From positions 32,984,001-33,048,000 of the forward strand of contig OX597822.1 of the NCBI GenBank assembly GCA_951406725.2: 64,000 nt of DNA, in the 5' to 3' direction. This document shows positions 8,078-48,832 of the stretch, piece by piece. The notes beneath the pieces were generated by a model. It made no database searches, was not told where the DNA came from, and saw only the letters and a program-made list of their open reading frames with translations. Made by a program: the position numbers and the translations under genes. The DNA is from Octopus vulgaris. Taxonomy: Eukaryota. Every line of letters starts with the position of its first letter. Position 1 is the stretch's first letter.

Positions 8078-8327
8078 TACCTATTTCTTTACTACCCACA
8101 AGGGGCTAAACACAGAAGGGACAAACAAGGACAGACACACGTATTAAGTCGATTACAGCGACCTCAGTACGTAACTAGTACTTATTTAATCAACCCCGAA
8201 AGGATGAAAGGCAAAGTCGACCTCGGCGGAATTTGAACTCAGAACGTAGTGGCAGACCGGTAGACGAAGTACCGGTAAGCATTTCGTCCGGTGTGCTAAC
8301 GTTTCTGCCAGCTCGTCATTACCGCCA
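8078..8327 (-). mobile_element. SINE family A
   Basis: Reverse complement of the 6292-6530 unit. Confidence 0.9.
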
Positions 8328-23868: not shown

Positions 23869-24009
23869 CGTATGTATGTATGTATGTATGTATGTATGTA
23901 TGTATGTATGTATGTATGTATGTACGTATGTATGGGCATAATTCAATACCAAGACTTTTATCTTTCTTCATTTCGGATTACTTTTAATATTTACTTATTC
24001 TATACTGTT

Positions 24010-24218
24010 ATTCTTTTATTTGTTTCAGTCAGTTGACTGCAGCCATGCTGGAGCACCGCCTTTAGCCAAGTAAATCGACCCCAGGACTTATTCTTTGTAA
24101 GCCTAGTACTTATTCTATCGGTTTGTCTTGCCGAACCGCTTAGTTACGGGGACGTAAATACACCAGCATCGGTTGTCAAATGATTTTGTGGGGACAAATA
24201 CAGAAACACAAACACACA
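24010..24218 (-). mobile_element. SINE family B, 3' half
   Basis: tgtttcagtcagttgactgcagccatgctggagcaccgcc...acaccagcatcggttgtcaa. Confidence 0.85.
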
Positions 24219-39124: not shown

Positions 39125-39382
39125 ATACATGTGACTTGATCTGAGATCGTGTGCTGGAACGGAAACAATTGCAGCATGGAAGGTGTTTGCAAGCCATTTA
39201 AGAAACACAAAAACCCGTTAGATTCACTACAACATTTAAATTTAATTTGCTAAAATATTTTCGTCGCTTAGAGACCGCGACCTGTTTACTGACAAAATTC
39301 CGTACTGCAGTGTTGAAGTGAATCTAACGGTTTTTGCATGTTTCTTAAATGGCTTATAAACACCTTCCATGCTGCAATTGTT
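39125..39382. mobile_element. Foldback element (arms 39164-39234, 39311-39382) with a minus-strand G3:C8-type hammerhead motif (39246-39296)
   Basis: Arms pair by eye; same family as 45406-45713. Minus strand TTTGTCA-GTAAACA-G-GTCGC/../GCGAC-GAAAATATTT. Confidence 0.8.
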
Positions 39383-40279
39383 TATATATAAATACACACA
39401 CATGCGCGCGCGCGTGTGTGTGTATACGTGTATGTGTGTATGTGTATATATAATTTGTTAGATACCGTGTTATTATGAGATATTTGCCTTATATCTTGTA
39501 GTCATTTAAATGATAATACATTTATTTTTCACCATTTTAAATTCCATCCACTCACATATTCTAAATGTCATGGTTTCTCTGGAAAACTGATTTTTCTTGA
39601 TTTAGTTAGCGTCTTCACGGCACAGCAAAAGTTAGTAAATCGACACAGTGATTCGTCTAGGCAACGATGTCTAATGGTAAGTAATTGATCACGTTTACAA
39701 TCTTGCATCTTACCAGTGCATGAAAATTTTATCAAGTCTACCTTTTAGATTCGTGCCCCCTGCAGTGAATTTTCACATGTCAAACATTTTTCCTCGGATT
39801 GGTAGAAATTTTATAGTTGGTGATGTTTTCAGAAATTCACACCTACTTTGTAACAGCTTTTTGCAATGTAGCTCGTTGATCTCAGTCTCCTGTCACACGA
39901 AACGAAGGTAATTGTTTTCAGCTCGTAATTAACCAGATGATAGTCGGACACTACATGCTGTTCGACGATTTCGCTTTTAGAAAATGTAAACACTTTCTGG
40001 AGTATAAGGGTTTCATTAGAAATCCAGTTTCTTCGTATTAATTTACAGAGGATTGTGATGTATCACTTAGAAAGCCGTTTTTCTAGCAGGAAGTCCATTT
40101 AAGTCACGCACACCTTTGAATCTTTTGAAGTATAAACGTGCTGTTTACACTCCCTTCATCTGACTTCCTCTTTCATTCTTCCCCATTTATTTCTCTCTCC
40201 CCTACTCTCTTCTCTCTCTTGCATTCTCTCTCCCTGTCCCATTCTGCTTTTCACTCTCTCCACCCTCTCCCTCTCTCTC

Positions 40280-40418: not shown

Positions 40419-40822
40419 ATAGCCGAGCCGGCAGAAACGTTAGCACGCCGGGCGAAATGCTTAGCTGTATTTCGTCTGCCGCTACGTTCTGAGTTCAAAT
40501 TCCGCTGAGGTCGAATTTGCCTTTCATCCTTTCGGGGTCGATTAAATAAGTAACAGTTACGCACTGGGGTCGATATAATCGGTTTAATCCGTTTGTCTGT
40601 CCTTGTTTGTCCTCTCTGTGTTTAGCCTCTTGTTAGTAGTAAAGAAATAGGTATTTCGTCTACCGTTAAATTCTGCGTTCAAATTCCGCCGAGGTCGACT
40701 TTGCCTTTCATCCTTTTGCGTTTCAACAGTTATGTACTGGAGTCGATATAATCGACTTAATTCCTTTGAATGCCCTTGTATGTCCCCTCTATGTTTAGCT
40801 CCTTGTGGGCAATAAAGAAATA
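40419..40822 (+). mobile_element. Dimeric SINE family A with a 16-bp target-site duplication
   Basis: agaaacggctcatttt at 40403-40418 and 40823-40838. Confidence 0.9.
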
Positions 40823-41137: not shown

Positions 41138-41545
41138 AGAGTGGCTGTGTGGTAAGTAGCTTGCTTACCACCACACGGATCCGGGTTCAGTCCCACTGCG
41201 TAGCACCTTGGGCAAGTGTCTTCTACTCTAGCCTCGGGCCGACCAAAGCATAGTGAGTGGATTTGGTAGACGGAAACTGAAAGAAGCCCGTCTTATATAT
41301 GTATATATATATGTGTGTGTGTGTGTGTGTATACGTTTGCGTGCCTGTATTTGTCCCCCCACCCAACATCGCTTGACAACCGATGCTGGTGTGTGTACGT
41401 CCCCGTAACTTAGCGGTTCGGCAAAAGTGACCGACAGAATAAGTACTAGGCTTACAAACAATAAGTCCTGGAGTCGATTTGCTCGACGAATGGCGGTGCT
41501 CCAGCATGGCCGCAGTCAAATGACTGAAACAAGTAAAAGAGTAAG
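41138..41545 (+). mobile_element. tRNA-derived SINE family B, full length
   Basis: gagtggctgtgtggtaag (A box), gggttcagtccc (B box), ccttgggcaagtgtcttctac, internal (TG)n, tail tgactgaaacaagtaaaagagtaa. Confidence 0.9.
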
Positions 41546-45170: not shown

Positions 45171-45405
45171 TAGGGAATAAGTTAGAAATAAGTTAGTAAA
45201 TATAACTTTACTTTAACCTCGAAACGCGTATGTAGCTAATCTGAGACGTGTGAATTCACTATTTTTTCTTTTTGCCTACGTAAAAAAGTGTTACTGTCTG
45301 GGAGATCATTATGGTAGTAGAAAAGGAATTTTAGCTCCTATTTCTAAACTCGGTGCGTGGTGAAGCAATTAGCTAACCCCTAATCATAATTTTATAATAC
45401 GTTTA

Positions 45406-45713
45406 AAAAACACACAAAAACGGTTAGATTCACTTCAGCATTTGAATTTAAATTGTCAAAATATTTTCGTCGCTTTGAGACCGCGACCTCTTCACACACA
45501 AAATTCCGTGCTGCATCATTTTTTTCAGTGAACAGGTCGCGGTTTCAAAGCGACGAAAATATTTTGACAAATTAAATTTAAATATTGAAGTAAGTCTAAT
45601 GTTTTTTTGTGTATTTCTTAAATGGCTTATAAACACCTTCCACGCTGCAATTGTTTTCGTTCCAGCACACGATCTCAGATCAGGTCTCTTGCTATGCAAG
45701 TACATCTCCGTAA
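45406..45713. mobile_element. Foldback element with hammerhead motifs on both strands
   Basis: Arms ~45406-45503 and 45521-45620 plus a tail homologous to 39125-39234. Confidence 0.8.
45521..45571 (+). ncRNA. Minimal type-I hammerhead-like ribozyme with G3:C8 core
   Basis: TTTTTCA-GTGAACA-G-GTCGC/ggtttcaaa/GCGAC-GAAA-ATAT-TT-TGACAAA; palindromic stem III AATATT; UUU triplet. Confidence 0.7.
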
Positions 45714-46880
45714 TGTATATATATATATGTATATTTGCATTCACATTCATGTGCATATGTAAATGTTTGTAGTGTGTGCGTTGGTGCGCGTTGGTGCGCA
45801 AGTACGTGTGTGCGTGTGTCCGTCTGTATCTGTCTGAATGTTTGTCTGTCTGTGTGTCTTTTATCGATAGGCAGATATTGGCAAAAGCAAAACTAGTGCT
45901 TTATTAACGAAGTCCCTTGGGCTATGTGTCCCGTATCGAGTTAAAAACGTGATATACTGAAACAATAATTGGCGCTGCGTAAGTCGGTAATTAAGAGACT
46001 ATAATTCCCCAATTGCAATATAAAATGTTTAATAACCAAATAGAGAAATAGTTTTACAATGAAGTCACATTTCATTTCCTTACTAGAGAGCCAATGTGAT
46101 ATATCATATAGCATCGCATGCACTTTACTATATGTCGTTTGATAATACATATAATTTTGAAATTTACTTAGAAGTACAACACAAATATTCGTTTAAAAGA
46201 TTATATGATTAAATATATTTAGAACACGCATGGATTCCTGTTTGTTTAATGTTTTCGTAAATTATTCTGTATTGTATTAAAGATTCAGTGGCGCTCATTA
46301 GGAGATTCTTGTGTCTATATTAATGCTTCTCACGTACATCTTACACAAACCTCATTCAATGTTTCCCCATTGTTTTGAATTAAATTATGTAAAACATTTT
46401 GTGTCTCATTGACAGTTAAGTAGTTTATATTTCAAATTAATCTTTTAGTCTCTTTGAAATACGAGAATTTGAATAATGAATTGCGAGAGAGTGTGTTTTG
46501 TTCTACAGAAACTTGCATAATAGTTCTATAAACTGAATGATAAATGAAAATATGTATAGCTTGGTGCTTTATAGAATATTATTAGAAATACGTCTTTTCT
46601 CATTTAATTTACACATTTATAACAATCCATTAAAGATTTGTACATTGCAACACTAAAACTTGTATTCAGAATATTCCACAATGCCAAACATCCTCAACTG
46701 TGTAGCTACTAATTACGTAATTAACGTTCATCTTGATAAAGAAACTTCATATTTTCACGAGAATTTGAGATTTTCTTTTATTTCAGTTACCATCGTTCTT
46801 ATCATAGTGTCTCGAAGTGCTGTATCTTAAACTATAAAATGAATGGCGTTGGATCGATTTTCTTAACTGTAAAAAGAAGA

Positions 46881-48437: not shown

Positions 48438-48832
48438 TTTTCTATTCTCTACTCTAGTTAGAAAACACGAAATTTTGAGGGAGAGGGCCATTCGCTTAGA
48501 TCGACCCCAGTGCGCAACTGGTACTCAATTTATCGACTCCTGAAAGACAAAGTCGACCTCGGTGGAATTTGAGCTCAGAACGAAAAGACAGACGAAATAT
48601 CTATTTCTTTACTGCCCACAAGGGGCTACACACAGAGGGGCCAGACAAGGACAGACAAACTGATTAAGTCGATTATATCGACCCCAGTGCGTAACTGGTA
48701 TTTAATTTATTGACTCCGAAAGGATGAAAGGCAAGGTCGACCTCGGCGGAATTTGAACTCAGAACGTAGCGGCAGACGAAATACCGCTAAACATTTCTCC
48801 CGTCGTGCTAACATTTCTGCCAGCTCGCCGCC
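48438..48832 (-). mobile_element. Dimeric SINE family A
   Basis: Two core units ending in ctgccagctcgccgcc. Confidence 0.88.

What the first reader, a model, noticed from the sequence alone, without database searches (positions are those of the whole stretch)
45521..45571. Natural G3:C8-swapped minimal hammerhead ribozyme family
Seen: three copies (45521-45571 +, ~45453-45503 -, 39246-39296 -) give the consensus TTTGTCA-GTGAACA-G-GTCGC-loop-GCGAC-GAAA-ATAT-TT-TGACAAA. This has a 7-bp stem I in the consensus, a 5-bp stem II and a palindromic stem III, the geometry of the other minimal HHRs here, but the core reads GUGAACA instead of CUGANGA. Established: C3 and G8 form a tertiary Watson-Crick pair, and engineered G3:C8 double mutants regain part of their activity. 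Inference: this repeat family carries a compensatory core swap that CUGANGA-based searches would miss. Caveats: G3 is in 3/3 copies but C8 in only 2/3 (cores GTGAACA, GTAAACA, GTGAAGA), and UUU is a weak cleavage triplet.
Basis: partly seen in the sequence, partly recalled or inferred. Interest (0 to 1): 0.82.

Follow-up and report, generated by a model that had tools for sequence, protein, structure and literature searches.

The report
Swapped-core hammerhead in a Penelope retroelement
Thousands of copies of a Penelope-type jumping gene in this animal genome carry a hammerhead-shaped RNA in which two normally fixed, paired core letters are swapped (G3-C8 instead of C3-G8), while two sister elements use C-G and U-A at the same spot, so it is likely a natural, weakly self-cutting variant, although cutting has not been tested.

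Summary
The three motifs lie in the 3' end of the pseudo-LTR of a Penelope-like retroelement (PLE) with RT, CxxxCxxC linker and GIY-YIG; a pLTR-ORF-pLTR copy was found. Genome-wide, 4473 of 4810 motif matches (93%) read G3+C8 and none reads C3:G8. Two sister PLE families carry the motif at the same place with C3:G8 and U3:A8, with compensatory stem II changes and otherwise mostly constant core. The swap is therefore real and most likely kept by selection. Against strong activity: G3 can wobble-pair with U17, stem III is two A-U pairs, copy 5' ends do not pile up at the cut site (1 of 118), and one sister family tolerates A9C. The three window copies are decayed, and the adjacent two are on opposite strands, so they are not a tandem dimer. 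My library searches found natural U3:A8 and engineered G3:C8 in print, but no natural G3:C8; a key paper was not held. This scan noted G3:C8 hammerheads before in phage and protist DNA (unchecked). Verdict: new variant of a known kind; cleavage untested.

The parts
45521..45571 (+). Minimal type I hammerhead motif, G3:C8 core (G3 45528, C8 45533, extra G 45535, stem II 45536-45540 with 45550-45554, GAAA 45555-45558, predicted cut after T45564); one stem I mismatch in this copy
45521..45714 (+). Sense arm of insertion 1: 3' end of the PLE pseudo-LTR (hammerhead, 57-nt spacer, ORF start, tail)
   Evidence: 87.6% identical to L157 pLTR end
45622..45714 (+). First 31 codons of the PLE ORF; in the full-length copy L157 this sequence runs on into the N-terminus of the RT-endonuclease protein
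   Evidence: window sequence
45653..45714 (+). Optional ~60-nt 'tail' (present in some copies, absent in others), the PLE signature of two reverse-transcription start sites
   Evidence: PMC11167929 passages
45391..45517 (-). Inverted arm of insertion 1 (antisense copy of the same pLTR end, no tail)
45452..45502 (-). Hammerhead copy in the inverted arm; G3:G8 core, stem I broken
39128..39309 (-). Sense arm of insertion 2 (pLTR end with part of the tail)
39246..39296 (-). Hammerhead copy in insertion 2; G3:C8 but G5-to-A and damaged stem I
39304..39383 (+). Short inverted arm of insertion 2, lacking the hammerhead

Best explanation
The motif is the hammerhead of a Penelope-like retroelement's pseudo-LTR, with G3 and C8 in place of C3 and G8 across the family, and it likely still works as a weak self-cleaving RNA that needs a second copy. 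Shown: it lies after the ORF end and 57 nt before the next ORF start codon; sister families have C:G or U:A at the same two positions; stems I and II can form. Inferred: G3 and C8 form the tertiary Watson-Crick pair that positions the 2'-OH of residue 8; two RNAs, or the two pLTRs of a tandem transcript, pair through the palindromic stem III strand; cleavage after U17 trims long tandem or read-through precursors. Most genomic copies, including the window's, are short dead insertions made by reverse transcription of uncleaved RNA, which likely starts at a capped site about 20 nt upstream of the core.
For: 4473 of 4810 matches are G3+C8, none C3:G8. Parent element with 1118-bp direct pLTRs (98.4% identical), RT, CxxxCxxC and GIY-YIG. 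Sister family B: C3:G8 in 97 of the first 100 of 3848 matches; sister family C: U3:A8 in 92 of the first 100 of 2842 (rows counted by eye). The RT tree puts this family as sister to (B, C) at 100/99. Five metagenome relatives have C:G (3) or U:A (2) at the syntenic site. 3:8 is Watson-Crick in all 7 families tested, 1 of 105 permutations (before family C was added). Stem II covaries between families (88% of cells paired, 0 of 500 shuffles as high; slid controls 10-55%). Common variants (minor allele 10% or more) are in 0 of 13 core and 1 of 24 stem columns but 5 of 8 loop II columns (p = 0.0003). A one-base indel in loop II rules out a coding constraint. Engineered C3G/G8C partly restores cleavage in a PLE hammerhead (PMC11167929) and is the only rescue in that part of the core in a full pairwise scan (PMC9901934).
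Against: No cleavage or RNA-end data. G3 can pair with U17 as a wobble extending stem I (-14.6 against -13.3 kcal/mol, probability 0.67), by analogy with the inhibitory C3-G17 pair (PMC3884650). The stem III palindrome gives only -0.2 kcal/mol as a duplex. 5' ends of copies show no pile-up at the cut site: 1 of 118 exactly, 3 within 2 nt, 73 keep the whole motif. Family B has spread to thousands of copies with C at position 9 (92 of the first 100 rows). About 2% of this family is G3:G8 (46 of the first 100 of 239 non-C8 rows), and these copies are no more decayed than G3:C8 copies. Core plus stems are not significantly more conserved than the rest of the pLTR end (1 of 37 against 16 of 151 columns, p = 0.2). 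The families are related, so the permutation and shuffle numbers are not probabilities. The G:C state is one evolutionary event.
Confidence: 0.65

Rival explanations
1. The fold is kept, with its G3:C8 pair, for a non-catalytic job (binding the PLE protein or shaping the 5' leader for translation), and cleavage is negligible.
For: G3-U17 wobble and near-absent stem III; no copy ends at the cut site; A9C tolerated in family B; hammerhead mutants do not affect insertion by a PLE protein in vitro, and no RNA-seq reads end at the site (PMC11167929); PLE hammerheads cleave poorly even as dimers (PMC4209133).
Against: The positions kept constant across families A, B and C are the catalytic-core ones (U4, G5, A6, G12, A13, A14, A15.1, G10.1:C11.1), and the 3:8 pair belongs to the active conformation.
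Confidence: 0.25
2. The motif is a dead relic: two neutral changes in one master element happened to be complementary and were amplified with it.
For: G:C is a single event; genomic copies decay neutrally; core and stems are not significantly more conserved than the spacer and ORF start (p = 0.2).
Against: Of 13 core positions only 3 and 8 differ from the canonical consensus, and they differ in a complementary way (rough chance 1/78 x 1/3, my arithmetic). Loop II has diverged between subfamilies while the core has not. The flanks of A, B and C do not align by BLASTN while the motif layout is kept.
Confidence: 0.08
3. The repeat is a DNA fold-back (MITE-like) element and the hammerhead resemblance is incidental.
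For: Many copies are near-perfect inverted repeats; the window insertion folds as one long hairpin (-125 kcal/mol).
Against: The arms have variable ends, an asymmetric tail and long target-site duplications (17 of 27 against 2.7 shuffled), and they are the end of an RT-encoding element.
Confidence: 0.02

Closest known systems
Minimal type I hammerheads (min-HHR) in pseudo-LTRs of metazoan Penelope-like elements (Cervera and de la Pena 2014, PMC4209133)
   Same: Place in the pLTR; extra nucleotide between 9 and 10.1; G10.1:C11.1; short palindromic stem III; mostly single or opposite-strand copies from truncated PLEs; a natural 3:8 covariant is known (U3-A8 in Schistosoma).
   Different: G3:C8. 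None of the 9 GUGA strings in the text of that paper's supplementary file 2 (alignment of 56 motifs) is at the core (supplementary file 1 not searchable).
PAc (Poseidon of Anolis carolinensis) hammerhead and its engineered C3G/G8C mutant (PMC11167929)
   Same: Hammerhead next to the ORF start in the pLTR; tail from two RT start sites; the double swap is partly active; uncleaved RNA is the main template.
   Different: The swap there is a laboratory mutant. This element has the CX2-5CxxC linker of Neptune/Nematis PLEs, and its ORF starts 57 nt after the cut site, not inside stem II.
Natural core variants of Perreault et al. 2011 (PMC3088659)
   Same: Compensatory change at the 3:8 pair in nature.
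   Different: Section 8 reports U3-A8 only; G3-C8 is not named in the text I read (figures not held).
Neptune/Nematis-type EN+ PLEs (Craig et al. 2021, PMC8557442)
   Same: C-terminal GIY-YIG, CX2-5CxxC linker, tandem and inverted 5'-truncated insertions, tail, many insertions at (TA)n.
   Different: Tail about 60 nt rather than 30-40; clade not assigned against named references; their core-only search string 'cuganga' would not match this core.

Membership tests
Hammerhead ribozyme, type I minimal (PLE min-HHR) | Stems I and II around the core, G10.1:C11.1 closing pair | tested here: met
   Intact copy L157 folds with both stems; stem II covaries across families
Hammerhead ribozyme, type I minimal (PLE min-HHR) | U4 G5 A6, A9, G12 A13 A14, A15.1:U16.1 | tested here: met
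   Each is the majority base in 93-100% of the 208-237 arms covering it
Hammerhead ribozyme, type I minimal (PLE min-HHR) | Literal C3 and G8 (CUGANGA box) | tested here: not met
   0 of 4810 matches are C3:G8
Hammerhead ribozyme, type I minimal (PLE min-HHR) | Watson-Crick complementarity at 3:8 | tested here: met
   G3:C8 in 4473 of 4810; C:G and U:A in sister families
Hammerhead ribozyme, type I minimal (PLE min-HHR) | Short palindromic stem III allowing a dimer; NUH triplet | tested here: inconclusive
   6-nt palindrome and UUU are present, but the duplex is only -0.2 kcal/mol and G3 can wobble with U17
Hammerhead ribozyme, type I minimal (PLE min-HHR) | Match to an Rfam hammerhead model | tested here: inconclusive
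   No hammerhead hit at E up to 10 for L157, but a canonical C3:G8 minimal motif at window 62999 is missed too
Hammerhead ribozyme, type I minimal (PLE min-HHR) | Site-specific self-cleavage after N17 | not testable with these tools
   Only contig-level runs were available; no pile-up of copy ends at the site
Penelope-like element, EN+ (Neptune/Nematis type) | Single ORF, RT followed by C-terminal GIY-YIG | tested here: met
   1025-aa open frame in L155 with RT motif and GIY-YIG; PF01541 at 24.9 bits in L091, over the cut-off, and 20.9 in L123, under it
Penelope-like element, EN+ (Neptune/Nematis type) | Direct pseudo-LTRs, inverted truncated copy, optional tail | tested here: met
   L157: 1118-bp direct repeats plus inverted copy; two 3' ends
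Penelope-like element, EN+ (Neptune/Nematis type) | CX2-5CxxC linker before GIY-YIG | tested here: met
   CxxxCxxC in L123, L155; definition from PMC8557442
Penelope-like element, EN+ (Neptune/Nematis type) | Phylogenetic placement with named Neptune references | not tested
   The tree holds no named reference elements
Non-LTR retrozyme | Short head-to-tail tandem units, each with a hammerhead | tested here: not met
   Copies seen are dispersed single arms, inverted pairs or ends of long PLEs
MITE / fold-back DNA element | Fixed terminal inverted repeats, short fixed TSD, no RT parent | tested here: not met
   Variable arms, long TSDs, RT parent

The most novel reading that the evidence does not exclude
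This is a catalytically active natural G3:C8 hammerhead family in an animal, apparently undescribed, and it acts as a tuned switch in the retroelement's 5' leader: slow, dimer-dependent cleavage 57 nt before the start codon removes the cap from a fraction of transcripts, while uncleaved RNA is the insertion template. The G3:G8 minority would be a standing 'off' allele or the surviving intermediate of the swap, and the three sister families (G:C, C:G, U:A) a natural experiment on the 3:8 pair.
Probability: 0.25. Interest if true: 0.75.

Novelty: new variant of a known kind. Interest (0 to 1): 0.55.

Why it matters
The 3:8 pair is central to the active hammerhead structure. In the papers I could read, G3:C8 was known from engineered mutants and only U3:A8 from nature. 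Here it is fixed in a family with over 4400 copies, beside sister families with C:G and U:A in one genome and one scaffold, which gives a matched set for asking how much cleavage a PLE hammerhead needs. What these ribozymes do for Penelope elements is an open question (PMC8557442, PMC11167929). It also shows that CUGANGA-based searches can score an element as lacking a hammerhead when it has one.

Tried and rejected
Rfam scan of the window: no hammerhead among the 150 of 164 rows shown, nearly all microsatellite-driven miRNA hits. Targeted Rfam scans miss both this motif and a canonical control, so the miss says nothing about the swap. GIY-YIG family search did not reach the parent (the one BLAST match, L059, is a short copy of the pLTR end lying next to another PLE); the parent came from a widely spaced inverted pair. 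L122 proved to be a segmental duplication, not a tandem element. Sequencing runs: no RNA holder listed; all four runs laid were contigs, so no start, end or expression could be read, and no splice joint was listed. No hammerhead was found in 4 of the 9 metagenome relatives whose 3' ends were printed (L347, L348, L351, L352), and the other 10 of 19 loci gave no motif I could place at the homologous site. MAFFT misaligned L346 in A2 and L345 in A3; L345 is the 'other' cell. Rejected: a tandem dimer from the two adjacent window copies (opposite strands; read-through RNA would form one long hairpin); a coding constraint on the motif; random decay as the source of G3:G8. No covariance model was built. 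Lunse et al. 2017 (PMC5785218) was not held; Przybilski and Hammann 2007 was seen only as a reference entry. The earlier-findings look-up by sequence was empty.

Full report
Observation. They belong to two insertions of one repeat: 45391-45714 (inverted arm plus sense arm) and 39128-39383. Each window copy is damaged and none folds into the hammerhead shape, while an intact copy elsewhere does. The genome has 2.8 Gb in 227 contigs. The best protein relative of the parent ORF is labelled Octopus vulgaris by its source, so I infer a cephalopod host.

Family-wide core. A pattern with positions 3 and 8 free matches 4810 times, the reversed control 0 times. Of these, 98 lack G3 (10 have C3, all with C8) and 239 have G3 without C8. 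So 4473 (93.0%) are G3:C8 and none is C3:G8. These are exact-pattern counts and miss more decayed copies. In a sample not selected with the free-position core pattern (29 of its loci were best BLAST hits to the window element), 187 of 208 arms were G3:C8. The G3:C8 core also appears in loose-end consensus lines for runs labelled organisms B, C and D, and no variant at positions 3 or 8 was among the rows shown, with 23 rows not shown.

What the repeat is. Aligned copies have one or two arms, two alternative 3' ends about 60 nt apart, and target-site duplications (9 nt or longer in 17 of 27 loci against a shuffled mean of 2.7; some matches are AT repeats and three loci were mis-anchored). Longer copies continue upstream into an ORF end with a CxxxCxxC linker and GIY-YIG. 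L157 is a pLTR-ORF-pLTR copy with 1118-bp direct repeats at 98.4% identity and an inverted partial copy; its ORF carries stops and frameshifts, and its 5' pLTR tail runs on into the ORF N-terminus. L155 holds a 1025-aa open frame. This is the anatomy described for EN+ PLEs, with the linker of the Neptune/Nematis type (PMC8557442, passages). The tail matches the two RT start sites shown for the Anolis element (PMC11167929, passages). The window element is thus the last ~200 nt of the pLTR: hammerhead, 57-nt spacer and first 31 codons.

Comparative evidence for the swap. Family B (55-60% identity over the endonuclease) has the motif at the same place with C3:G8 (97 of the first 100 of 3848 matches). 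Family C has U3:A8 (9 of 9 copies in loci; 92 of the first 100 of 2842). The RT tree gives (A,(B,C)) at 100/99, so the ancestral pair cannot be fixed. All three keep U4 G5 A6, the extra G, G10.1:C11.1 and GAAA. Stem II differs by compensatory pairs: 10.3:11.3 is C:G in A and B but U:A in C, and 10.4:11.4 is G:C in A and C but A:U in B. Five of the nine metagenome relatives whose 3' ends I printed (of 19 loci) show a motif at the homologous site, three C:G and two U:A. Over seven families, before C was added, all 3:8 combinations are Watson-Crick, 1 of 105 permutations. On a seven-row alignment 88% of cells pair, 0 of 500 shuffles reach that, and slid controls give 10-55% (two rows are family A and one row is misaligned). 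Relatedness means these numbers are not probabilities. Within family A, common variants fall in 5 of 8 loop II columns, 0 of 13 core columns and 1 of 24 stem columns, the last a wobble-compatible change. The contrast with loop II is significant (p = 0.0003); that with the rest of the pLTR end is not (p = 0.2).

How it likely works. By established structure C3 and G8 pair in the active core. The engineered swap partly restores activity in a PLE hammerhead (PMC11167929) and was the only rescue in that part of the core in a full pairwise scan (PMC9901934, passages). PLE minimal hammerheads are inactive as monomers and weak as dimers (PMC4209133, parts 1-2 of 4 read; PMC6765202, passages). I therefore infer a weak, dimer-dependent cut after U17 that processes tandem or read-through precursors. 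Of 118 arms anchored at the ORF start, 43 begin 55-62 nt upstream of the cut site and only 5 reach further upstream. Among 35 copies starting at that point, 20 have an extra G against a 12% background. This suggests a capped transcription start copied by the RT; junction microhomology could contribute, and the same spot also looks like a splice acceptor (976 matches).

Results against activity. Only 1 of 118 arms starts exactly at the cut site, 3 within 2 nt, and 73 keep the whole motif. Uncleaved RNA is thus the main template, as in the Anolis element, where ribozyme mutants did not affect insertion. G3 can extend stem I by a wobble with U17 (probability 0.67), and the stem III palindrome is worth -0.2 kcal/mol. 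A 3:17 pair is the proposed inactive trap, and an engineered G3-C8 was less active with C17 than with G17 (PMC3884650, passages, 'data not shown'). This family has U17 in essentially all arms, which avoids the Watson-Crick version of the trap. Family B spread with A9C. A G3:G8 minority (46 of the first 100 non-C8 rows) occurs on several subfamily backgrounds and is no more diverged than G3:C8 copies. C-to-G changes at other C columns were 0-2 of about 190, and 6 of 188 at one column. I cannot explain this minority.

Literature and novelty. Natural U3:A8 is reported (PMC4209133; PMC3088659 section 8). Library searches for G3-C8, G3C8, C3G with G8C, GUGANCA-type strings and octopus hammerheads found no natural G3:C8; the library lacks most subscription papers and figures. 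None of the 9 GUGA strings in supplementary file 2 of PMC4209133 is at a core (file 1 not searchable). Lunse et al. 2017, the most likely place for a prior example, was not held. Also seen: the first fifth of bioRxiv 10.64898/2026.07.22.740005 (supplements closed), and passages of PMC13725137 and PMC11300833, none naming a natural G3:C8. Earlier notes of this scan list G3:C8 hammerheads in phage DNA and in PLEs of other genomes, three described as protist or microbial eukaryote. I did not check them and they are not support, but they suggest the swap may recur in nature.

Verdict. A real, family-wide compensatory core swap in a known kind of PLE hammerhead: new variant of a known kind. I put homology and the swap at about 0.95, and retained weak cleavage at about 0.65. 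Interest 0.55.

Noticed in passing
window 16451 (+), 62999 (+), 20454 (-): Three canonical C3:G8 minimal hammerhead motifs of other repeat families; the 62999 type recurs in L160 and L303.
   Followed up: partly
L324:6682-6740 and 3848 genome matches (family B): Sister PLE family with C3:G8 but C at position 9 in 92 of the first 100 rows and A in 7; a second core variant.
   Followed up: partly
L338:6380-6425 and 2842 genome matches (family C); L038, L040, L041, L044, L049, L055, L170: U3:A8 hammerheads in at least three PLE or repeat families of this genome.
   Followed up: partly
L163, L164, L298, window 45452-45502: G3:G8 minority on several subfamily backgrounds, no more decayed than G3:C8 copies; unexplained.
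   Followed up: partly
L157:3200-3222; 976 genome matches: Branch-point-like, pyrimidine-rich, AG-ending stretch right at the common 5' start of copies; could be a splice acceptor, an initiator, or both.
   Followed up: partly
G000:C16, 4.8-14.7 Mb: Eight copies of this element's endonuclease on this stretch of contig C16 are 77-81% identical to the query, against about 90% for most others; an older subfamily or a faster-mutating region.
   Followed up: no
window 40424-40710 / 48541-48827 / 8078-8257; 24008-24193 / 41359-41544: Other interspersed repeats of 180-290 nt, about 87-89% alike, in inverted orientation.
   Followed up: no
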